From an uncultured Clostridia bacterium (GTDB lineage: Bacteria > Bacillota > Clostridia > Christensenellales > CAG-917), in NCBI GenBank assembly GCA_947382865.1, contig CANDBF010000001.1, forward strand, positions 9,543 through 73,542: 64,000 nucleotides of DNA. Reading direction: 5' to 3'. The notes under the pieces were generated by a model. It made no database searches. It saw nothing but the letters and a program-made list of their open reading frames with translations, and was not told where the DNA came from. Shown one piece after another: positions 7,278-39,941 of this stretch (position 1 is its first letter; the number at the start of each line of letters is the position of its first letter). Made by a program: the position numbers and the translations under genes.

Positions 7278-7655
7278 TTATATTATGTCGGCGAGGTTGA
7301 AGTCGAGAATGTTGTGGATGTTCTGCGACATAATCTGCAAGGAGCGTATTTTTGAGAGCGCGTTGTCGTAATCCCCGCATTCGAGCGAGCCGACCGTCTC
7401 CCCGACTGCGACTGAAAAGCCGCGTATATCGGGCGAGTACATGAAAAGCTCCGCGCATTTTCTTTCCTTTTCCCACCAGCCTTGAAGGTCTTTCGCCTGC
7501 CCCAGCGCCGCTTCGTCCTGCGCTATTATGCTGTGTTCCAGCTCGGAAAGCCTGCCGTCCAGATTTGCGAATACCTTGTCTACGTAAACGTTTTCGAGTA
7601 TTCCCGCGGTCAGAATAATCACGAGTATAACGATTGCGACTATGACTTTTTTCAT
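7278..7655 (-). CDS. DUF4363 family protein
   Basis: 125 aa with an N-terminal TM anchor. The sequence has ...LGQAKDLQGWWEKERKCAELFMYSPDIRGF... and the gene sits immediately downstream of, and overlapping, a DUF421 gene. That is the usual pairing. Confidence 0.65.
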   Translation of the reverse strand: MKKVIVAIVILVIILTAGILENVYVDKVFANLDGRLSELEHSIIAQDEAALGQAKDLQGWWEKERKCAELFMYSPDIRGFSVAVGETVGSLECGDYDNALSKIRSLQIMSQNIHNILDFNLADII

Positions 7656-8488
7656 TCGTCCACCCCGTCTGATTGCGCCTTAGCGCCCTTGCTGTCGTTT
7701 ATGATTATGCCTTCGTCCGATTCGGATTTATCGTCCTTGCTCATTTCGGCGCGTTCGTCGTGTACGGATACGGTCGTTTCCGCGCTGTCGTCGCTGTCGA
7801 GCTGCGCTGTTATGAAGTCGCCCTTGTAGGGTTGCAGATATACGTCCTCTCCCGATACCAGAAGCACCAACACGTCCTCCTGTTTGACGTTAATATTGTC
7901 GAGCAGGGTGAGCACGCGCTCCTTTATCGTGCCGTCGAGCTGTGCGACGTTTTCTCCGACAAATTCGCCCTCCATAATCACCGATACGGGAATAGAAGCG
8001 GGCGGGAGCTGTAATCCGAGATCCTCGGGAGAAAGCGGTTTATTTTGCGACTTGGGAAGAACAGTAAGGCTTCCGTTGGTTTCGAGTATGGCGTATTCTA
8101 CCTCGGAGGGATTGAAATAGCCGCTTCCCCTAAGCGCCTCCATAATATCGTCGATATTCATATTCAGCTCTTTCATAACGTCGGGAAGAATGTTGCCTTT
8201 CTCGATGAGTATGACGGGCTTACCGTTGAGAAATTTCCTGAAACGCAGGCTCTTCGTAGCGAGCTTGGTTATGATGATATGCACGAGGAAGAGGGAGAAA
8301 ACGGGAATTATTCCGTATATAATAGGGATTGTCGCGTCGCCCATCGGGATGCACACGAGCTCGCTTGCGACAAGCGTTATGGCGAGCTCGAAGGGTTGAA
8401 GCTCGCCGAGCTGCCGCTTGCCCATAAGTCTCATTGCAAGCAATAAGAAAAAATACAATACCAGACACCTTATGAATAAATTCAGCAT
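7652..8488 (-). CDS. DUF421 (YetF/YdfS-like) membrane protein with acidic C-terminal tail
   Basis: LAMRLMGKRQLGELQPFELAITLV and the following TM region are typical of the DUF421 N-terminus. It carries about 50 extra acidic C-terminal residues (DSDDSAETTVSVHDERAEMSKDDKSESDEG...). Confidence 0.7.
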   Translation of the reverse strand: MLNLFIRCLVLYFFLLLAMRLMGKRQLGELQPFELAITLVASELVCIPMGDATIPIIYGIIPVFSLFLVHIIITKLATKSLRFRKFLNGKPVILIEKGNILPDVMKELNMNIDDIMEALRGSGYFNPSEVEYAILETNGSLTVLPKSQNKPLSPEDLGLQLPPASIPVSVIMEGEFVGENVAQLDGTIKERVLTLLDNINVKQEDVLVLLVSGEDVYLQPYKGDFITAQLDSDDSAETTVSVHDERAEMSKDDKSESDEGIIINDSKGAKAQSDGVDE

Positions 8489-8538
8489 ACCGATATTGTG
8501 TTTTTACTTTACTTTTTTATGCGCCTACGCGCGTAAAA

Positions 8539-10083
8539 TCAGCGCCTGCGCCGTTTCGTTGTCCTCTTTCTCCCGCCGCTCTTGCGACGCGTCACCGCCG
8601 CGGGACGAAGCAGACGTATGTAACCCGTTATATCCGCAATATCGAATGCGGAGATAAATACGAAAAGGAAAAACACCAGAAATACGATGAGCACAACCGT
8701 CGTTACGACGTTGCCGGCAACCTTCGAGAGCAGATTGGACGAGAAAAATCCCAGAAGGGCGAGGGGTATGGAAAAGCCCAGCGTTTTGAGAAATTTTTTG
8801 ACGTCGACAAATTTGCCGACTTCCTTTCTGAGAACGATTATGTTGAGTATGCTTATGAGCGTGAAGCAAAGCGCGGAGGCTATCGCCATTGCGTATACGC
8901 CCGTAACAGACGGCAGAAGAAAAACGCAGGGAATGGTTATCAAGGTGCCGAGCGCGGAGATTATAAAGGTTGCGCGCTCCTTGCCGAGCGAATTGAGCAT
9001 AGGAGTGGTGACCTGCGCGAGCGAAATTGGGAACAGCATCGCGGCGCAGTGCGATACCAGCTCGCCAGCGTGCGCGTCGTTGAAAAACATAGTTCCTATC
9101 TGCCTGCCAAGAGGAAGATATATGACGAAAAACACCGCCGAAACCAGTACGGCAAACGTCATCGCGCTCGATAGTTTTTTGCGTACCGCTTCAAGATTGT
9201 CTTTGGCTTTGAGCTCCGCAACGTCGGGGATGAGGACGACCGAAAGCGAGCTTACAAACATTACTGGCGCCATAATAAGGGGCAGAGCCATACCCGCGAC
9301 GCGCCCGTATTCCGCGGTAGCCGCCGCGATGGTCATTCCGCTTTTTACAAGCATCTGCGGTATTACTATGGCGGTCAGGGACGCGGTCAGAGAGGTGAAT
9401 ATTCTCGTCGCAGAAAGCGGCACCGTACGCGTAATAAGCTCCTTGAAGCCGCGGGGCTTGGTGAATCTTCCGCCCGATATGAAATATAGGATTGCAAGCA
9501 CCAGTACGCAGAGCAAATCCGCTATCGTCATCGCGAGCGCGACGCCCTGCGCGCCGCTTATAAACGAGACCAGACCGCCCGCGAATACGACGGACAGGAC
9601 GATTTTGATAATCTCGTCAAGCAGCTCTGTCGAGGAGAAGGCGAGGAAGTTTTTTCTGCCCCAGAACCAGCTTCTGAACGACGCGTACAGCGTGGACGTT
9701 ATCAGAGTGGGCAGCATTATCAGGAATATGGGCAGACACCTTTCGTCCGAAAAAAGGAAGCCGAGCTTGGAGTGCAGACCGAACATCAGTCCCGTGAGCG
9801 CGGCGGAAATCATAAAGCCCATTATGAGCGAGGCGGTAGCATATGCGTTCTGCCTCTTCGTATCGCCTACGGACGCCGCTTCCGCCACCTTGCGCGACAG
9901 CACGGTAGGAGCGCCCGCAGTGAGAGTAAACAGCAGCATAATGACGCTCATCGCAATCTGATACAGACCTACGACCTCCGCGCCGAGCGCGCGCGACATC
10001 CATATTTTGAATATAAACGACAGCGCCCTTGTAAGGATGGAGAAACCCGTCACTATCGAAAATGATTTGGCTGTTTTATTCAT
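8539..10083 (-). CDS. MOP-superfamily flippase-like membrane protein (SpoVB / polysaccharide biosynthesis protein type)
   Basis: 514 aa and polytopic (about 14 TM). The N-terminus SFSIVTGFSILTRALSFIFKIWMSRALGAEVVGLYQIA is typical of the SpoVB/MurJ-like family, and the C-terminal tail is basic. Confidence 0.7.
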   Translation of the reverse strand: MNKTAKSFSIVTGFSILTRALSFIFKIWMSRALGAEVVGLYQIAMSVIMLLFTLTAGAPTVLSRKVAEAASVGDTKRQNAYATASLIMGFMISAALTGLMFGLHSKLGFLFSDERCLPIFLIMLPTLITSTLYASFRSWFWGRKNFLAFSSTELLDEIIKIVLSVVFAGGLVSFISGAQGVALAMTIADLLCVLVLAILYFISGGRFTKPRGFKELITRTVPLSATRIFTSLTASLTAIVIPQMLVKSGMTIAAATAEYGRVAGMALPLIMAPVMFVSSLSVVLIPDVAELKAKDNLEAVRKKLSSAMTFAVLVSAVFFVIYLPLGRQIGTMFFNDAHAGELVSHCAAMLFPISLAQVTTPMLNSLGKERATFIISALGTLITIPCVFLLPSVTGVYAMAIASALCFTLISILNIIVLRKEVGKFVDVKKFLKTLGFSIPLALLGFFSSNLLSKVAGNVVTTVVLIVFLVFFLFVFISAFDIADITGYIRLLRPAAVTRRKSGGRKRTTKRRRR

Positions 10084-19236: not shown

Positions 19237-19998
19237 ATGGTTTGTATGAGAAAGATAGTTGTGACCTCCGGCAAAGGGGGTGTGGGAAAGACCACCGTCA
19301 CCGCGACGCTCGGGCGTAAGCTCGCGCATAAAGGCTATAAGGTCGTGCTTGTGGACGGCGACGTGGGACTGAACAACCTCGACGTAGTGACCGCCATAGA
19401 AAAAAGAGTGGTCTACGATATGAGCGACGTGCTCGCAGGCAAGTGCAGAGCCTTTCAGGCGCTCGTTTCCGACACGCAAAGTCCTATGCGCATACTGCCG
19501 TCATCCAAGGACAGCGCCGCGCTTACCGCGCAGGCGTTCCGCGGAGTTGTGGACGGCTTTTCAGAGTTCGATTTTGTGATAATAGACTGTCCCGCGGGCA
19601 TAGAGCATGGCTTTCACAGATCCGTGTCCGCCGCCGACGAGGCTATCGTCGTCACGACTCCATCCGCTTCGGCGATACGCGACGCGGACAAGGTCATTAG
19701 ACTGCTTGCAAGCTACCGCCTTGCCGACGTGTCGCTGGTGGTCAACCGCGTAAGAGCGGATATGGTCGTCAGAGGGGAGATGATAGGCGCGGCGGAGATA
19801 GGCTCTCTGCTTCATATCCCGCCGATAGGAGTCATTCCCGAGGACGATATGATTACGCTGTATCAGCAGCTCGGGGGCGTGCCCGACAGCGCAATATCGG
19901 ATAGGGCGTTCGACGCGCTCGCCGCGAATATCGCAGACAAGACAAAGGTCTTTGTGGACGTAAGCGCGAGGCGCAGACTGTTCAGACGCAGATATTGA
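19237..19998 (+). CDS. minD: Septum site-determining ATPase MinD
   Basis: VVTSGKGGVGKTTVTATL (deviant Walker A), GLNNLDVV, IIDCPAGIEHG, and TPSASAIRDADKVI. A basic amphipathic C-terminus is present. The start could also be the ATG at 19246. Confidence 0.85.
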   Translation: MVCMRKIVVTSGKGGVGKTTVTATLGRKLAHKGYKVVLVDGDVGLNNLDVVTAIEKRVVYDMSDVLAGKCRAFQALVSDTQSPMRILPSSKDSAALTAQAFRGVVDGFSEFDFVIIDCPAGIEHGFHRSVSAADEAIVVTTPSASAIRDADKVIRLLASYRLADVSLVVNRVRADMVVRGEMIGAAEIGSLLHIPPIGVIPEDDMITLYQQLGGVPDSAISDRAFDALAANIADKTKVFVDVSARRRLFRRRY

Positions 19999-20005
19999 GG
20001 TCGCT

Positions 20006-20257
20006 ATGAAAAGGTCGAGAGATATAGCAAAGCGTATGAGAGAAATGCTTACGCAGGATAAGGTCGGAATAAAGGAGGGCTTTTCCGTCGCTCTTACGGG
20101 GGATCTGAACCGACTGCTCGGAGATTATTTCGAGCTCACCGCTCCCTTAGACCTCGCGATTGCGCAGTCGGAGGACGGCGAGTATCTTGTTCAAATCTCC
20201 GCGAAGGCGTGCAGGATAAAGCAGTTCGACACTACGCTGGACGTAAAAAGATATTAG
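20006..20257 (+). CDS. minE: Probable cell division topological specificity factor MinE
   Basis: 83 aa, located 7 nt after minD. The N-terminal SRDIAKRMREMLTQDK resembles the AKERL..ll..DR motif, and the C-terminal segment has an alternating beta pattern. Confidence 0.55.
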   Translation: MKRSRDIAKRMREMLTQDKVGIKEGFSVALTGDLNRLLGDYFELTAPLDLAIAQSEDGEYLVQISAKACRIKQFDTTLDVKRY

Positions 20258-20317
20258 TTTTTGTTTTGTGGAATAATCGCCGCCTATCGGGCATAGGCTT
20301 AATTCGAGGTGACGATT

Positions 20318-20554
20318 ATGGAATTTGACGAAAATAAAAAGCTCGAAGTTGAAATTTCCACCAACGATTTCGTTGAAAACAGAGTGGAGGAAAAGCGCCG
20401 CCGCAAAAGCAGATTCGATTTGCTTGACGCCGCCATCGTACCCGTCATTATAGGCGTGTTCGTTTCTCTGGGCTTCCTGTTTGCCAACATATTCAAGGCT
20501 ACGGCTGCGGTTGACGCCATCAAGTCAGTCGCTAGCGCACTTGCGGGAATGTGA
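20318..20554 (+). CDS. Small single-pass membrane protein, unknown function
   Basis: 78 aa from ATG 20318, with a GAGGTG Shine-Dalgarno 8 nt upstream. It has an acidic N-terminus, a basic patch KRRRKSR, and a TM segment AAIVPVIIGVFVSLGFLFANIF. It lies between minE and the M50 protease. Confidence 0.4.
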   Translation: MEFDENKKLEVEISTNDFVENRVEEKRRRKSRFDLLDAAIVPVIIGVFVSLGFLFANIFKATAAVDAIKSVASALAGM

Positions 20555-20565
20555 GCGTTTGAAAT

Positions 20566-21456
20566 ATGCAGATAAAGGTACATCCGCTGTTTTTCGTGCT
20601 TGCCTTGGCACTTGTGGCTCTTGGGCAGGCACAGGCGTTTGTGTCCACTTTTATTGCGCTGATTTTCCATGAGCTTGCGCACGCGGCGCTTGCGCGGATG
20701 CGCGGCTTCGCCGTAAAAAAAATGGTGCTTATGCCCTTCGGAGCGATGATGAGCACCGAGGAGAATTTCGACAGAACGTCCGCCGTGATGGTCGGGCTCG
20801 CGGGACCCGTATGCAATTTTCTGCTTGCGCTTATTACGCTGGGCATATGGTGGCTTGCGCCCGCCGTCTATCCTTATACGCAGACGTTCTTTTACGCGAA
20901 TATGTCTCTGGGCGTGTTCAATCTTCTACCCGTCTATCCGCTCGACGGCTCACGCGCAGTGCTCGGGCTTTGCAAAAACAGGCTAAAAGCCATAAAGGGC
21001 TTGCAGATTGCGGGCATTGTATCGAGCGTGATTTTCTTTGGACTTTTTATAGCCTCTTTCTTTTTCGGTCTGAATTTCAGCTTCGGAATAATCGCGGTAT
21101 TCCTCTTTTACGGCGCGGCGTTCGGGACCAAAGAGGAAATGTACATAAGCGTGTTGGACGGCGCAAGCAAAAACTATATGCTCGGAGTGGAGCAAAAGAC
21201 GGTGCGCGTATCAAAAGATATTCCGATAATCAGACTGTATCATCACATAAGTTCGGCGAGCGAAACGAAGTTCGAGATTGTAGGCGAGAGAGGAGAAATC
21301 GTATCCACCCTCACCGAAGCGGAACTTAAAGCCGTCGCGTTGGGGAACAGACTGTCTAAGCCTATCGGATACGCGCTCTTTGGGAACGCAGACAAAAGCC
21401 GAAAGCCCGCAATAAAGCGCAAGACCGCGGTATCGCATAGAAAAACCGCGACGTAA
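20566..21456 (+). CDS. M50 family site-2 metalloprotease, SpoIVFB-like
   Basis: IFHELAHAALA (HExxH within a TM segment) and FNLLPVYPLDGSR (second zinc-ligand motif). Its position after minD matches the B. subtilis spoIVF locus. Confidence 0.75.
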   Translation: MQIKVHPLFFVLALALVALGQAQAFVSTFIALIFHELAHAALARMRGFAVKKMVLMPFGAMMSTEENFDRTSAVMVGLAGPVCNFLLALITLGIWWLAPAVYPYTQTFFYANMSLGVFNLLPVYPLDGSRAVLGLCKNRLKAIKGLQIAGIVSSVIFFGLFIASFFFGLNFSFGIIAVFLFYGAAFGTKEEMYISVLDGASKNYMLGVEQKTVRVSKDIPIIRLYHHISSASETKFEIVGERGEIVSTLTEAELKAVALGNRLSKPIGYALFGNADKSRKPAIKRKTAVSHRKTAT

Positions 21457-34660: not shown

Positions 34661-34807
34661 ATGAAAAGAATCGTTACATTGAAAACCCGCAATCTCAACG
34701 AGAGCAAAAAGAACGGCGGTTGCGGCGAGTGCCAAACTTCCTGCCAGTCCGCTTGCAAGACGTCCTGCGGCGTGGCAAATCAGAAGTGCGAGAAAGCGGC
34801 GAAATAA
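34661..34807 (+). CDS. Six-cysteine peptide SCIFF (ranthipeptide-type RiPP precursor)
   Basis: 48-aa ORF, below the ORF-track cutoff: MKRIVTLKTRNLNESKKNGGCGECQTSCQSACKTSCGVANQKCEKAAK. It has six Cys in the C-terminal half and the GGCGECQTSCQSACKTSC core typical of SCIFF. The cognate rSAM maturase follows it. Confidence 0.9.
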   Translation: MKRIVTLKTRNLNESKKNGGCGECQTSCQSACKTSCGVANQKCEKAAK

Positions 34808-34861: not shown

Positions 34862-34969
34862 GTGACAGGGAATTTCGATTTGTTTTAAGGTTTTCGGACT
34901 GTCATAATTTCGGACGGTTTATTAAAAGCGCGGCGCGGCATAATTTTGCGTAGCCGCGGGAGAGAAAAT

Positions 34970-36349
34970 ATGATTCATTCATTCAGGCAAAACGGATACA
35001 ATATCGTGCTCGACGTAGCGAGCGGAAGCGTGCACGTTGTGGACGACGCGGCGTACGACGTAATAAACGCGTACGAATCTAAAAGCGAGGACAGTATTGT
35101 AAAAGCCGTGTGCGAGAAGCACGGCATAACTCCCGAGGAGGCGCGCGAATGTATCGCGAACGTTAAGGAGCTAAAAGCCGACGGCAAGCTGTTTTCGGAG
35201 GATACGTTCAAGCCCGACGCGAATATACTCGCAAAGCGCGACACGGTTATTAAGGCTATGTGTCTGCACGTCGCGCATACCTGCAACCTCGATTGCGAAT
35301 ACTGCTTCGCGGCGCAGGGCAAATATCACGGCGAGCGCGCGCTTATGACGTACGAGGTGGGCAAACGCGCTCTGGATTTCCTTGTGGAGAACAGCGGGAC
35401 GCGCCATAATCTCGAAGTGGATTTCTTCGGCGGCGAACCGCTTATGAATTTTGAAGTTGTGAAACGGCTCGTAGCATACGCGCGTTCGATAGAGGAAGAG
35501 AAGGGCAAGCATTTCAGATTTACGCTCACCACCAACGGAATGCTCATCGACGACGACGTGATAGACTTCTGCAACCGCGAGATGGACAACGTCGTGCTGA
35601 GCCTCGACGGCAGAAAGGAGGTGCACGACCGCTTCCGTAAGACCGTGGGAGGCAAGGGCAGCTTCGATATAATAGTGCCGAAATTTAAGAAGCTCGTGGA
35701 CGAGAGAAAGAACGGAACATATTATATGCGCGGCACGTTTACGCATTTCAATCCCGACTTCACGGAGGATATCGCGACTATGCTCGACCTAGGTTTCGAC
35801 GAGTTGAGTATGGAGCCCGTCGTGTGTCCGCCAACCGACAAGTATGCGCTTACCGAAGAGGATAAGCAGGTCATCTACGGGCAGTACGAGAAGCTCGCTG
35901 ATATGATGATAGAGCGCAGGAAGCAGGGCAAGCCCTTTACGTTTTATCACTATATGCTCGACCTCGACGGCGGTCCGTGCATATACAAGCGCATATCGGG
36001 CTGCGGAAGCGGCACGGAATACCTCGCCGTTACGCCTACGGGCGAGCTGTACCCCTGCCACCAGTTTGTAGGGAATAGGGACTACCTTATGGGCGACATA
36101 TGGCATGGCGTGACGAGGACTGATATACGCGACAGGTTCAAGAGGTGCAACGCGTATTCCCGCAAGGAGTGCGGGGACTGCTGGGCTAGGCTATACTGCT
36201 CGGGGGGCTGCGCCGCAAACGCGTACAATGCGACGGGCGATATAAACGGCACATACGCGTATGGCTGCGACCTCTTCAAAAAGCGCATAGAGTGCGCGAT
36301 TATGCTCAAAGTGGACGAAATGATGAGCGAGCAAAATCCGCAGCAATAG
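34970..36349 (+). CDS. SCIFF radical SAM/SPASM maturase (thioether cross-link-forming)
   Basis: HVAHTCNLDCEYCFA carries the CxxxCxxC cluster. The C-terminal SPASM Cys clusters are CGSGTEYLAVTPTGELYPCHQF and CGDCWARLYCSGGCAANA. ATG 34970 follows a GGGAGAG Shine-Dalgarno; the ORF track starts at 34946. Confidence 0.9.
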   Translation: MIHSFRQNGYNIVLDVASGSVHVVDDAAYDVINAYESKSEDSIVKAVCEKHGITPEEARECIANVKELKADGKLFSEDTFKPDANILAKRDTVIKAMCLHVAHTCNLDCEYCFAAQGKYHGERALMTYEVGKRALDFLVENSGTRHNLEVDFFGGEPLMNFEVVKRLVAYARSIEEEKGKHFRFTLTTNGMLIDDDVIDFCNREMDNVVLSLDGRKEVHDRFRKTVGGKGSFDIIVPKFKKLVDERKNGTYYMRGTFTHFNPDFTEDIATMLDLGFDELSMEPVVCPPTDKYALTEEDKQVIYGQYEKLADMMIERRKQGKPFTFYHYMLDLDGGPCIYKRISGCGSGTEYLAVTPTGELYPCHQFVGNRDYLMGDIWHGVTRTDIRDRFKRCNAYSRKECGDCWARLYCSGGCAANAYNATGDINGTYAYGCDLFKKRIECAIMLKVDEMMSEQNPQQ

Positions 36350-37627: not shown

Positions 37628-39013
<1,386 letters not shown>

Positions 39014-39115
39014 AACACACCTCTTTGAAAATTGCAAATAATGATTAAATAAAATAATAATTAAAAGAGCCTATAAAGTCAATCGATTGAAAGCCGATTA
39101 TTCAGGCGCAAACGC

Positions 39116-39149
39116 AAAAAAAGAACGCCGTGCGGCGTTCTTTTTTTTT
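39116..39149. terminator. Strong bidirectional intrinsic terminator
   Basis: AAAAAAA-GAACGCCG-tg-CGGCGTTC-TTTTTTTTT, 12 nt after the stop of the Cys/Gly-rich micro-protein gene. Confidence 0.85.
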
Positions 39150-39161
39150 GCAAAATCCGAA

Positions 39162-39371
39162 TTACTTGCAGCAGCAGTTGTTGGAACCGCACAGGCAGGA
39201 CAGAATAAGTATAAGCCATACGAGATCGCAGCTGCCCATACCGCCGCAACCGGTATTTCCGCATCCGCAACCGCATCCGCAGCTGTTCAGGATGAACAGG
39301 AGAAGGATGATGTCGCAGCAGTTGCATCCGCAACCGCAACCATTATTGCCACCGTTTGCAAAAAAGTTCAT
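39162..39371 (-). CDS. Cys/Gly-rich, doubly hydrophobic 69-aa micro-protein of unknown family
   Basis: MNFFANGGNNGCGCGCNCCDIILLLFILNSCGCGCGCGNTGCGGMGSCDLVWLILILSCLCGSNNCCCK has 16 Cys and 14 Gly. A GGAGGT Shine-Dalgarno sits 7 nt upstream of the ATG, and a dedicated terminator follows. Confidence 0.65.
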   Translation of the reverse strand: MNFFANGGNNGCGCGCNCCDIILLLFILNSCGCGCGCGNTGCGGMGSCDLVWLILILSCLCGSNNCCCK

Positions 39372-39476
39372 AGTATGTACCTCCGTTTTATTAGGATTTC
39401 TCCTACATTACCTTACGCTTTTTCAAAAAAATGTGTTCCTAAGCATTGAAAATATAAACCGCAAATATAATTTGAT

Positions 39477-39941
39477 GTGGAGTACCTAAAACGGATGGTC
39501 GGAATTGTAGTAGGTCTTTTCTGCGTGCTTATCGTCGCAGGAATTAGCTCCGCAATCTTCAAAATAGACTTAAACTGGTATATTTCGCTCAATAAACCCC
39601 CGTTTGTGGTAAGCAGCGGGTGGTTTACGGTGTTCGTGGCGGTAAGCTATATCTCCTCTATCGTGGCGGTAAGCAGGCTTGTGCACTTCAAGCATTTTTT
39701 TCCGTCGCTGCTGTTTTTCGGCTTGCTGGGACTGTCCAACATACTGTTTGTGCTCTGCTTTTTCAGACTCAAAAATCTTATAGCGTCGCTTGTGTTCATA
39801 ACTGTTGCGCTCGCGATGGCGTACACGCTTTTCATCAGATTTATTTTGAAGGAAATCAAAATCGCGGCGGAATTCGCTCCCGCGTTCGTATTCTATGCGT
39901 ATGCTTTCGTGTGCGTGCTCTATATCGCTATGCAAAATTGA
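39477..39941 (+). CDS. TspO/MBR-like membrane protein (divergent)
   Basis: 154 aa with about 5 TM. LNWYISLNKPPFVVSSGWFTVFVAVSYISS resembles the W(Y)..L.KP.(W/F).P....F..W..(L)Y motif of TspO. The start is GTG, and ATG 39495 is an alternative. Confidence 0.45.
   Translation: MEYLKRMVGIVVGLFCVLIVAGISSAIFKIDLNWYISLNKPPFVVSSGWFTVFVAVSYISSIVAVSRLVHFKHFFPSLLFFGLLGLSNILFVLCFFRLKNLIASLVFITVALAMAYTLFIRFILKEIKIAAEFAPAFVFYAYAFVCVLYIAMQN

What the first reader, a model, noticed from the sequence alone, without database searches (positions are those of the whole stretch)
39162..39371. Self-contained gene for a 69-aa Cys/Gly-rich micro-protein with two ultra-hydrophobic 8-residue cores
Seen in sequence:
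- The minus-strand ORF reads MNFFANGGNNGCGCGCNCCDIILLLFILNSCGCGCGCGNTGCGGMGSCDLVWLILILSCLCGSNNCCCK.
- It has 16 Cys (all TGC codons) and 14 Gly, together 43% of residues.
- It is built from two similar halves. Each half is a Gly/Cys run (GCGCGC...), then Cys-Asp, then 8 purely hydrophobic residues (IILLLFIL / LVWLILIL), then (N)S-C. The protein ends in CCCK.
- A GGAGGT Shine-Dalgarno (39379-39384) lies 7 nt upstream of the ATG.
- A strong bidirectional terminator (39116-39149) begins 12 nt after the stop. The gene is therefore a monocistronic unit wedged between glyQS and a TspO-like gene.

Inference:
- I cannot assign it to any named family.
- The 8-residue cores are too short for a classical TM helix.
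- The layout (small-residue-rich lead plus a very hydrophobic short core) recalls the tiny YjcZ-type sporulation proteins of Bacilli, but here it is Cys-dominated.
- Possible roles are a metal, Fe-S or thiol-chemistry micro-protein, a disulfide-crosslinked spore-envelope component, a re-entrant membrane hairpin, or a RiPP-like substrate. A SCIFF radical-SAM maturase gene ends 2.8 kb away.
- I did not find a convincing promoter.
Basis: partly seen in the sequence, partly recalled or inferred. Interest (0 to 1): 0.8.

Follow-up and report, generated by a model that had tools for sequence, protein, structure and literature searches.

The report
Cys-rich sporulation-type micro-protein gene
This is a real, strongly conserved gene for a 69-residue cysteine/glycine-rich, very hydrophobic micro-protein; it belongs to a large uncatalogued family of gut Clostridia whose genes sit behind a promoter of the late-sporulation (sigma-K) type, so it is most likely a small spore-envelope component.

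Summary
Every detail of the observation checks out: the ORF, 16 TGC-coded Cys, 14 Gly, two similar halves, the GGAGGT ribosome-binding site and the terminator.

The gene is under purifying selection. Its nearest relative differs at 13 of 210 bases, and all 13 changes are synonymous. Clade dN/dS is about 0.19.

It belongs to a family of at least 186 distinct sequences in Christensenellales-like MAGs and Lachnospiraceae. No Pfam or NCBIfam model covers it. NCBI mislabels some members "chorion class high-cysteine HCB protein 13".

The family shares a module that occurs twice: Cys, then a polar cap, then exactly 8 hydrophobic residues, then Ser/Asn, then Cys (CX10-11C). The Cys/Gly/Asn linkers vary in length.

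In 35 of 47 distinct Lachnospiraceae-type upstream regions there is an exact sigma-K consensus (AC-N16-17-CATAnnnTA); shuffles give 0.34. The window's clade has the same layout, with an invariant CGTAAGGTA as the -10.

The protein is an architectural and regulatory analogue of Bacillus YjcZ, but no homology to YjcZ is detectable. The RiPP-substrate, glyQS-attenuator and SCIFF-substrate readings are rejected.

My best reading is a late mother-cell micro-protein of the spore envelope that can be cross-linked through its cysteines. The function is inferred, not shown.

The parts
39433..39439 (-). -35-like element GGAACAC (clade consensus G[T/G][A/C]ACAC).
   Evidence: It is conserved in 27 distinct clade upstream regions. 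The same G-n-A-A-C-[A/C] element occurs in 44 Lachnospiraceae-type promoters.
39409..39417 (-). -10-like element CGTAAGGTA, 17 nt after the 'AC'. It matches the sigma-K consensus CATAnnnTA except for G at position 2.
   Evidence: It is CGTAAGGTA in 25 of the 27 aligned clade loci (CGTATGGTG in L030, CGTAAGGTG in L031). It is unique in the window, with 0 expected in shuffles. L107 and L112 have the analogous CGTATGTTA, while 35 of 47 homologues have an exact CATAnnnTA.
39394..39408 (-). Invariant element after the -10, ATGTAGGAGnAATCC. It probably covers the transcription start and the 5' end of the mRNA, and it can form a small UAGGA-GNRA-UCCUA hairpin.
   Evidence: The element is invariant. 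The hairpin is weak (-5 kcal/mol, z -0.6). An analogous [CT][AG]TAA motif follows the -10 in 37 of 44 Lachnospiraceae-type loci, against 5.3 in shuffles.
39379..39384 (-). Shine-Dalgarno sequence GGAGGT, 7 nt before the ATG.
   Evidence: GGAGGTACATA is conserved across the clade.
39162..39371 (-). Coding sequence of the 69-aa micro-protein, stop codon included.
   Evidence: Purifying selection is shown, and homologues.
39279..39317 (-). Module 1: C19-D-IILLLFIL-NS-C31 (CX11C), an 8-residue hydrophobic core. AlphaFold2 places a helix at residues 18-31.
   Evidence: Family statistics are and the AF2 model (low confidence).
39195..39230 (-). Module 2: C48-D-LVWLILIL-S-C59 (CX10C), an 8-residue hydrophobic core. 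AlphaFold2 places a helix at residues 47-63.
   Evidence: SCD[IL]VWLILILSC is nearly invariant in the clade.
39116..39149 (-). Intrinsic terminator: A-run, a G+C-rich hairpin, then a T-run.
   Evidence: the 57-nt stretch containing it folds at -21.4 kcal/mol. A hairpin of -8 kcal/mol or stronger ahead of a T-run lies within 70 nt of the stop in 25 of 31 clade loci.
39477..39941 (+). Divergently transcribed TspO/MBR-family membrane-protein gene, the constant neighbour of the micro-protein gene in this clade. It is context and not proven to belong to the same system.
   Evidence: Pfam PF03073 match. It lies divergently, 103-110 nt upstream, in 30 of 31 clade loci even where glyQS and coaX are rearranged.

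Best explanation
**Shown.**
- The ORF is a real protein-coding gene under purifying selection.
- It belongs to a large, uncatalogued family of Clostridia micro-proteins of about 60-100 aa.
- The family is built from two copies of a fixed module: Cys, a polar cap (D/S/N/E), exactly 8 hydrophobic residues, S/N, then Cys.
- The modules are joined by Cys/Gly/Asn linkers of variable length.
- The gene is monocistronic, with a strong ribosome-binding site and a terminator.

**Inferred from promoter anatomy.** The family is transcribed by RNA polymerase carrying the late mother-cell sporulation sigma factor sigma-K. The window's clade uses a CGTA variant of the -10.

**Inferred from composition and analogy.**
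- The protein is made in the mother cell late in sporulation and needs no export signal.
- It folds as a hairpin of two short capped hydrophobic helices.
- The hairpin buries itself in the outer forespore membrane or in a hydrophobic coat layer.
- Its many cysteines stay reduced in the anaerobic cytoplasm. They form intermolecular (and possibly helix-stapling) disulfides once the spore is released and meets oxygen.
- The protein would thus add a cross-linked, hydrophobic element to the spore envelope.
- It works like Bacillus YjcZ-type tiny sporulation proteins and, in design, like other high-cysteine shell proteins. It is not a detectable member of any of these families.
For: - **Coding and selection.** The nearest relative shows 13 synonymous and 0 non-synonymous changes. 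Clade dN/dS is 0.19, and the core columns keep one amino acid across many codons.
- **Family size.** Searches found 9 homologues with the single sequence and 271 with the profile. Loci recovered were 30 from genomes and 76 from metagenomes.
- **Module statistics.**
  - 181 of 186 distinct sequences have two cores.
  - 312 of 367 cores are exactly 8 residues long.
  - 265 of 366 flanking-Cys spacings are CX10C or CX11C.
- **Promoter in Lachnospiraceae-type loci.**
  - 35 of 47 distinct upstream regions carry an exact AC-N16-17-CATAnnnTA, and 44 of 47 a relaxed form.
  - Shuffles give 0.34 and 0.64.
  - There are no matches on the opposite strand.
  - The background rate is 0.015 per 100 nt.
  - The -10 box starts 37-46 nt before the ATG in 42 of the 44 aligned upstream regions (58 and 61 nt in the two L109 copies).
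- **Promoter in the window's clade.** It has the same layout, which is near-invariant in 27 loci.
- **Published consensus.** Sigma-K promoters have AC at -35 and a CATA-type -10, both in B. subtilis and in C. difficile (PMC517825; PMC3789822).
- **YjcZ regulation.** B. subtilis yjcZ is assigned to the sigma-K regulon (PMC517825).
- **Spore context.** Csp-type germination protease genes lie beside the small gene in some loci.
- **Hints of sporulation genes in the window.**
  - A protein whose best match is SpoVB.
  - A DUF421/YetF plus DUF4363 gene pair.
  - An M50 protease resembling SpoIVFB, placed after minD and minE.
- **Structure.** AlphaFold2 puts the only helices on the two cores in two independent subfamilies.
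Against: - There are no expression, localisation or proteomic data.
- The window clade's -10 has G where sigma-K promoters have a near-invariant A. GGAAC-N17-CGTA also resembles ECF-sigma promoters.
- I could not check whether this MAG or its clade encodes sigK, spo0A or the rest of the sporulation machinery.
- Published predictors call most Christensenellales MAGs non-sporulating, with some CAG-74 exceptions (PMC12536801).
- None of the sporulation-like genes in the window reaches a curated cut-off.
- The AlphaFold2 models have low confidence (pLDDT 52.8 and 46.2).
- The disulfide cross-linking and envelope location rest on composition and analogy only.
Confidence: 0.55

Rival explanations
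1. It is a small membrane protein unrelated to sporulation. In the window's clade it would be transcribed by an ECF-type or other alternative sigma factor (GGAAC-N17-CGTA) and would work with the divergently encoded TspO-like membrane protein, for example in envelope, redox or porphyrin stress.
For: - The clade promoter reads G[G/T]AAC-N17-CGTA, which also fits ECF-type -35 AAC and -10 CGT motifs known from the B. subtilis sigma-W/M/X literature.
- The TspO-like gene is the constant divergent neighbour in 30 of 31 loci.
- Most Christensenellales MAGs are predicted to be non-sporulating.
- Hydropathy passes the transmembrane threshold.
Against: - Homologues in Lachnospiraceae carry CATAnnnTA, which is not an ECF -10, behind the same GnAAC -35 and at the same distance from the ATG.
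- The clade element keeps TA at -10 positions 8-9, as sigma-K promoters do.
- TspO is absent from the Lachnospiraceae-type loci.
Confidence: 0.2
2. It is a metal-, Fe-S- or thiol-buffering micro-protein, a membrane-anchored metallothionein-like protein. This role could hold with or without sporulation control.
For: Cys makes up 23% of residues, with CGCGC runs. Conserved Cys bracket both helices.
Against: - The Cys-rich linkers vary freely in length and in Cys number between close relatives. That is unlike a defined metal cluster.
- There is no match to any metallothionein or Fe-S family.
- His is absent, and the only acidic residues are the two helix-capping Asp.
Confidence: 0.1
3. It is a RiPP precursor: a SCIFF-like or ranthipeptide substrate, or a thiazole/oxazole-modified peptide.
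For: The peptide is small and rich in Cys and Gly. A SCIFF radical-SAM maturase gene ends 2.8 kb away.
Against: - The maturase has its own canonical SCIFF precursor immediately upstream, at 34661-34807.
- No modifying enzyme, protease or exporter is a conserved neighbour in 31 clade loci or 45 Lachnospiraceae-type loci.
- There is no leader/core division. Conservation is highest in the hydrophobic cores.
Confidence: 0.03
4. It is a Gly/Cys-rich leader peptide that attenuates transcription of the downstream glycyl-tRNA synthetase gene.
For: It lies directly upstream of glyQS and ends in a terminator. It has 14 Gly codons. No T-box is present.
Against: - glyQS has its own TTGACT-17-TATTAT promoter after the terminator.
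- glyQS lies elsewhere or in another orientation in L008, L013, L014, L016 and L021.
- Selection acts on the hydrophobic cores and not on the Gly runs.
- Lachnospiraceae homologues are not next to glyQS.
Confidence: 0.02
5. It is a type I toxin-like membrane peptide.
For: The product is a small, very hydrophobic peptide.
Against: - The gene sits at a conserved housekeeping chromosomal position as a single copy, which is not the pattern of a mobile element.
- The promoter is of a sporulation type.
- No conserved antisense promoter was seen: the sigma-K motif never matches on the reverse strand.
- The two-module Cys-bracketed design is unlike known type I toxins.
Confidence: 0.03

Closest known systems
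YjcZ family sporulation proteins (Pfam PF09680 YjcZ_2 / TIGR01732) of Bacillaceae
   Same: - Both are tiny proteins of 30-75 aa.
- Both have a Gly/Cys(/Tyr)-rich lead, an ultra-hydrophobic core, and a short Cys-containing tail.
- Double-core variants exist in YjcZ too (P0149, P0158).
- B. subtilis yjcZ is assigned to the sigma-K regulon (PMC517825), matching the promoter type found here.
- The function of both is unknown.
   Different: - No homology is detectable. There is no HMM hit at E<=10 for 17 members, although a YjcZ-like control sequence scores 1.9e-13. hhalign probabilities are 4% and 0.2%.
- The YjcZ core is one invariant block of about 15 residues, FALIVVLFILLIIVG. Here there are two 8-residue cores, each bracketed by Cys and capped by D/S/N/E and S/N.
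- The hosts are Clostridia, not Bacilli.
Cysteine-rich spore coat and exosporium proteins (CotY/CotZ/ExsY of Bacillus; CdeC/CdeM of C. difficile)
   Same: Both are Cys-rich proteins made late in the mother cell under sigma-K, and the known ones form disulfide-linked outer spore layers. This comparison rests on the established literature and was not tested here.
   Different: The known proteins are much larger and soluble enough to self-assemble, and they lack the ultra-hydrophobic 8-residue cores. There is no sequence similarity.
Silkmoth chorion high-cysteine (Hc-B) proteins, the name NCBI attaches to some members
   Same: Both have Cys-Gly repeat 'arms' flanking a hydrophobic central part. 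In chorion these arms harden an eggshell by disulfides (established knowledge). This is a convergent design for a cross-linked shell protein.
   Different: The two are not homologous. No Pfam chorion domain matches. The NCBI label is a compositional artefact, and the only paper using the name is about Bombyx mori.
Twin CX9C (CHCH) helical-hairpin proteins
   Same: Both have two short helices, each bracketed by a Cys pair at fixed spacing. In CHCH proteins two disulfides staple an antiparallel hairpin.
   Different: The spacing here is CX10C or CX11C, not CX9C. The helices are fully hydrophobic, the proteins are bacterial, and there is no sequence match. Disulfide stapling here is only a hypothesis.
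SpoVM and CmpA, small mother-cell sporulation proteins of B. subtilis
   Same: Both groups are micro-proteins of the mother cell that act at the forespore surface (PMC10730256).
   Different: SpoVM and CmpA depend on sigma-E. They are amphipathic or soluble and not Cys-rich, and they are unrelated in sequence.

Membership tests
YjcZ family (PF09680 / TIGR01732) | Match to the family HMM above its cut-off. | tested here: not met
   No hit at E<=10 for the window protein or for 16 relatives in Pfam and NCBIfam. A YjcZ-like control sequence scores 50.2 bits against PF09680.
YjcZ family (PF09680 / TIGR01732) | Remote homology by profile-profile comparison. | tested here: not met
   hhalign of A2 and A3 against a 29-member YjcZ alignment gives probabilities of 4.1% and 0.2%.
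YjcZ family (PF09680 / TIGR01732) | Architecture: a small-residue-rich lead, an ultra-hydrophobic core and a Cys tail. | tested here: met
   Compare alignments A1/A2 with A5. The layout is analogous, but the core is 8 residues occurring twice versus about 15 occurring once.
Sigma-K regulon (late mother-cell sporulation genes) | Promoter with AC at -35, a 16-17 nt spacer and CATAnnnTA at -10. | tested here: inconclusive
   Family-wide the feature is met: 35 of 47 exact against 0.34 in shuffles. In the window's clade the -10 is CGTAAGGTA, one mismatch at a normally conserved A.
Sigma-K regulon (late mother-cell sporulation genes) | The genome encodes sigK and the sporulation machinery. | not testable with these tools
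   Only 64 kb of this genome is available. The window holds only sub-threshold SpoVB-like and SpoIVFB-like genes and a DUF421 gene. Literature on the order is mixed.
Sigma-K regulon (late mother-cell sporulation genes) | The transcript depends on sigK and appears late in sporulation. | not testable with these tools
   No expression data are available.
SCIFF / radical-SAM RiPP precursors | Match to the precursor family and a cognate maturase next to the gene. | tested here: not met
   - No NCBIfam hit.
- The true SCIFF precursor is at 34661-34807, beside the maturase.
- No maturase is a conserved neighbour.
T-box or leader-peptide control of glyQS | A T-box RNA, or obligatory linkage to the downstream synthetase gene. 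| tested here: not met
   No T-box at E<=1. glyQS has its own promoter. The linkage is broken in several loci.
Insect chorion Hc-B proteins (the NCBI product name) | Homology to the chorion central domain. | tested here: not met
   There is no Pfam match of any kind. The name appears only on MAG proteins.
Twin CX9C (CHCH) proteins | Two CX9C motifs in a helical hairpin. | tested here: not met
   The spacings are CX10C (191), CX11C (74) and CX9C (29) of 366. There is no Pfam match.

The most novel reading that the evidence does not exclude
This uncatalogued 'twin C-cap-h8-cap-C' family is a major sigma-K-made structural protein of the spores of gut Clostridia (Lachnospiraceae, Christensenellales-like lineages and others). 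It would act as a bacterial counterpart of hydrophobins or chorion high-Cys proteins. Each protein would form a monotopic hairpin of two 8-residue helices that coats the outer forespore membrane or coat. The layer would lock into a disulfide-cross-linked hydrophobic shell only when the anaerobe's spore meets oxygen. Its lack of Lys and Arg would explain why spore proteomics has never reported it.
Probability: 0.25. Interest if true: 0.75.

Novelty: new variant of a known kind. Interest (0 to 1): 0.55.

Why it matters
- **Gut spore biology.** Spores are how most gut Clostridia transmit between hosts, yet the coat proteins known from Bacillus are largely missing in them. A widespread, apparently sigma-K-driven micro-protein with an unusually rigid design is a concrete candidate for an unrecognised envelope component. 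Its design is two exactly 8-residue hydrophobic helices bracketed by cysteines.
- **A blind spot in current methods.** The gene is often not called. Where it is called, it carries a silkmoth eggshell name. The protein has almost no tryptic sites, so standard proteomics would miss it.
- **A genomic marker.** The family-wide promoter signal gives a cheap marker for late-sporulation regulons in uncultured Clostridia.

Tried and rejected
- **Family libraries.** Pfam and NCBIfam scans of the protein and 16 relatives gave nothing.
- **Solved structures.** A PDB sequence search with the family profile gave nothing.
- **YjcZ.** Profile-profile comparison gave no homology.
- **RNA families.** An Rfam search of 38800-39700 found no T-box. 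All hits were below their gathering scores and looked like terminators.
- **Loci search.** The search for related loci with the broad alignment A2 failed for lack of a conserved stretch. The narrower A1 and A3 worked.
- **AlphaFold2.** Two runs gave low-confidence models (pLDDT 52.8 and 46.2). I therefore ran no fold search.
- **Sporulation genes in the window.** Only sub-threshold or generic matches turned up. The motif scan found no other promoter of this type in the window.
- **Literature.**
  - The "chorion class high-cysteine" search found only a Bombyx paper.
  - Searches for small Cys-rich sporulation proteins of Clostridia found nothing on this family.
- **5'-UTR hairpin.** The GNRA loop pattern is suggestive, but the fold is not better than shuffles.
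- **Conserved neighbours.** The two downstream genes conserved in Lachnospiraceae-type loci are absent from the window and its clade.
- **Source of the window.** L010 is not the window's own contig. It is a relative at about 88% nucleotide identity.
Full report
**1.

- The minus-strand ORF at 39162-39371 encodes the 69-aa protein exactly as quoted.
- It has 16 Cys, all TGC, and 14 Gly.
- GGAGGT lies at 39379-39384, 7 nt before the ATG.
- An A-run/hairpin/T-run terminator lies at 39116-39149; the 57-nt stretch around it folds at -21.4 kcal/mol.
- The two halves align with 13 of 27 identities.
- It is the only ORF of this kind in the 64 kb.
- With their Cys flanks, both cores reach a Kyte-Doolittle 19-residue mean of 1.84. 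A membrane location is therefore not excluded by the short cores.

**2. It is a gene under selection**

- The nearest relative found is L010, with about 88% nucleotide identity in the flanks. It is not the window's own contig.
- L010 differs at 13 of the 210 coding bases, and all 13 differences are synonymous.
- Across 31 loci of the clade, median pairwise dN/dS is 0.19 at dS about 1.2.
- The hydrophobic-core columns keep one amino acid while using 3-8 codons. Length changes are confined to the linkers.
- Antisense frames are frequently open, but that is expected from TGC/GGN-rich codons. Conservation tracks the sense frame.

**3. The family**

- *Searches.*
  - A single-sequence search found 9 relatives.
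  - An exhaustive profile search of cluster representatives found 9.
  - A profile search of the 5.8-billion-protein set found 271 at E<=1.
- *Window subfamily.*
  - Its pattern is MN(G)FFxNG...CD[IL][IV]LL..LLN...SCD[IL]VWLILILSC...CK.
  - It occurs in 30 species-level genomes. These are MAGs labelled Christensenella sp. or uncultured Clostridia, including one complete 1.65-Mb chromosome.
- *Second subfamily.* A larger one begins MSDL[TSA]A[TS]NCGC. It is common in Lachnospiraceae, with MAGs labelled Roseburia, Agathobacter and Blautia.
- *Annotation.*
  - None of the 120 listed hits has a precomputed Pfam domain.
  - None of 17 members hits NCBIfam or Pfam at E<=10.
  - NCBI calls some members "chorion class high-cysteine HCB protein 13", a silkmoth eggshell name that can only reflect Cys-Gly composition.
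- *Design rule, across 186 distinct sequences.*
  - 181 have exactly two hydrophobic cores.
  - 312 of 367 cores are exactly 8 residues long.
  - The residue before a core is most often C followed by D, S, N or E. The residues after it are most often SC or C.
  - The flanking cysteines are CX10C in 191 cases and CX11C in 74 of 366.
- *In the window protein.* The modules are C19-D-IILLLFIL-NS-C31 and C48-D-LVWLILIL-S-C59.
- *Structure prediction.* AlphaFold2 places the only secondary structure, two helices, on these modules. This holds for the window protein (residues 18-31 and 47-63; pLDDT 52.8) and for a Lachnospiraceae member (27-36 and 61-74; pLDDT 46.2). Confidence is low, so I take only the helix positions from the models.

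**4. The promoter**

- *Window clade.*
  - Aligning 27 distinct upstream regions shows an element that is near-invariant while the surrounding DNA varies: G[T/G][A/C]ACACA(A)TTTT-N8-GCGTAAGGTAATGTAGGAGnAATCC ... GGAGGTACATAnnATG.
  - In the window this reads GGAACAC (39433-39439), a 17-nt spacer after the AC, and CGTAAGGTA (39409-39417).
  - The element is unique in the 64 kb.
- *Lachnospiraceae-type loci.*

| Measure | Observed | Control |
|---|---|---|
| Exact AC-N16-17-CATAnnnTA | 35 of 47 distinct upstream regions | 0.34 in shuffles |
| Relaxed form | 44 of 47 | 0.64 in shuffles |
| Matches on the opposite strand | 0 | n/a |
| Background in the same loci | n/a | 0.015 per 100 nt |

- *Position and shape.* The -10 starts 37-46 nt before the ATG in 42 of those 44 aligned regions; in the two L109 copies it starts 58 and 61 nt before it. 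The positional matrix reads G-n-A-A-C-[A/C] at -35 and CATAnnATA at -10.
- *Match to published consensus.* AC at -35 with a CATA-type -10 is the published sigma-K signature in B. subtilis (PMC517825). In C. difficile the -35 AC distinguishes sigma-K from sigma-E, which has ATA there (PMC3789822).
- *Bridging cases.* Two Lachnospiraceae-type loci (L107, L112) carry GGAACAC...CGTATGTTA, which bridges to the window clade's CGTA variant.
- *Reading.* I read the family as sigma-K-controlled. I read the window's promoter as the same type with one deviation. The ECF-like reading (GGAAC-N17-CGTA) remains a real alternative for this clade alone.

**5. Context**

- *Window clade.*
  - The constant neighbour is a divergently transcribed TspO/MBR-family gene, 103-110 nt away in 30 of 31 loci.
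  - glyQS and coaX are frequently rearranged around this pair.
  - glyQS has its own TTGACT-17-TATTAT promoter after the terminator, and there is no T-box.
  - A hairpin of -8 kcal/mol or stronger ahead of a T-run lies within 70 nt of the stop in 25 of 31 loci, so the gene is monocistronic.
- *Lachnospiraceae-type loci.*
  - Two uncharacterised genes of about 150 aa and 90 aa follow on the same strand in 27 and 24 of 45 loci.
  - These two genes have no family. They are absent from the window and its clade.
  - A few loci have Csp-type germination protease genes beside the small gene. This ties those organisms and that neighbourhood to spores.
- *Hints in the window.*
  - One protein's best NCBIfam match is SpoVB, at 207 bits against a cut-off of 372.
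  - A DUF421/YetF plus DUF4363 gene pair is present.
  - After minD and minE lies an M50 protease that matches SpoIVFB structures about as well as a generic archaeal site-2 protease.
  - These fit a sporulating lineage but prove nothing.
- *Literature.* Published predictions for Christensenellales MAGs are mixed (PMC12536801).

**6. Comparison with known families**

- *YjcZ (PF09680/TIGR01732).*
  - It is the closest analogue: tiny proteins with a Gly/Cys/Tyr-rich lead, the core FALIVVLFILLIIVG and a Cys tail.
  - It has occasional double-core variants, and it belongs to the sigma-K regulon in B. subtilis.
  - Membership fails on both HMM and profile-profile tests.
- *Resemblance in composition and presumed logic only.* This applies to silkmoth Hc chorion proteins and to the Cys-rich coat and exosporium proteins CotY, CotZ, ExsY, CdeC and CdeM.
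- *Twin-CX9C proteins.* They share the idea of Cys-bracketed helices but not the spacing.
- *RiPP reading.* It fails because the SCIFF maturase has its own canonical precursor at 34661-34807, and no maturase travels with the gene.

**7. Mechanism I commit to**

- *Inferred from promoter type.* The micro-protein is made late in the mother cell.
- *Inferred from composition and analogy.*
  - It forms a hairpin of two short, capped, fully hydrophobic helices.
  - The hairpin embeds in the outer forespore membrane or a hydrophobic coat layer.
  - Its Cys-rich linkers and tails become cross-linked by disulfides when the spore leaves the reducing, anoxic cell.
- *Confidence by step.*
  - That it is a real conserved protein gene of a new family: above 0.95.
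  - That the family is sigma-K-driven: about 0.75.
  - That this holds for the window's clade: about 0.6.
  - The structural cross-linking role: about 0.35.

**8. Verdict**

The RiPP link and the claim that no convincing promoter exists do not. The finding is a new, widespread variant of the little-understood class of tiny hydrophobic sporulation proteins. I score its interest as moderate to good (0.55).

Noticed in passing
window 34661-34807 (+) and 34946-36349 (+): A canonical SCIFF precursor (MKRIVTLKTRNLNESKKNGGCGECQTSCQSACKTSCGVANQKCEKAAK) lies directly upstream of its radical-SAM maturase, which scores 753 bits against TIGR03974. The pair is complete and independent of the finding.
   Followed up: yes
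window 39054-39082 (-) and 37628-39037 (-): glyQS has no T-box leader here. It has a short leader behind a TTGACT-17-TATTAT promoter placed just after the micro-protein's terminator. This is unusual for a Firmicutes glyQS.
   Followed up: partly
window 39372-39476 (intergenic) and 39477-39941 (+); clade loci L010-L039: The TspO-like gene and the micro-protein gene form a fixed divergent pair, 103-110 nt apart in 30 of 31 loci. A second conserved element on the TspO strand reads CATTGAA-N13-AAATATA. Its TTGAAA and TATAAT hexamers are only 14 nt apart, so the sigma type is unclear.
   Followed up: partly
L006 1195-1644 and 1686-1964; likewise L040-L115: In Lachnospiraceae-type loci two uncharacterised soluble proteins follow the small gene on the same strand, in 27 and 24 of 45 loci. 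One is about 150 aa with a Met/Gln-rich tail, and the other is about 90 aa with a WMxDP...KLxFL motif. Neither has a Pfam or NCBIfam family. Together they look like a conserved three-gene cluster.
   Followed up: partly
L086 1108-2931 (+) and L106 2004-2939 (-): Subtilisin-type proteases lie immediately upstream of the small gene in some loci. The L086 type (3 loci) matches the germination protease CspBA/CspC strongly (E 1.9e-87 and 4.8e-83). The L106 type (6 loci) matches a mycosin model best and Csp only weakly.
   Followed up: partly
upstream regions of L006 and L040-L115: Two further conserved motifs occur in the sigma-K-type promoters. [CT][AG]TAA lies 3-8 nt after the -10 in 37 of 44 loci, against 5.3 in shuffles. 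A tGACAgGC-like motif lies in the spacer in 17 of 44, against 1.0; from memory it resembles the SpoIIID site, and this was not verified.
   Followed up: partly
window 39391-39404 (-): The invariant 5'-UTR element can form a UAGGA-GNRA-UCCUA mini-hairpin. The only variable base in the clade is the N of the GNRA loop (GAAA, GCAA, GUAA or GCGA). The fold is no better than shuffles (-5 kcal/mol, z -0.6).
   Followed up: partly
window 7278-10083 (-) and 19237-21456 (+): Possible sporulation-related genes are present. They are a SpoVB-like flippase (below its cut-off), a DUF421/YetF plus DUF4363 pair with GCATA-N17-CACAATA upstream (about 8494-8522), and minD, minE, an 81-aa membrane ORF and an M50 protease resembling SpoIVFB.
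   Followed up: partly
database annotation (P0016, P0040, P0089, P0093 and others): NCBI product names call bacterial family members "chorion class high-cysteine HCB protein 13", a silkmoth eggshell protein name. Many other members have no called gene in their source records.
   Followed up: yes
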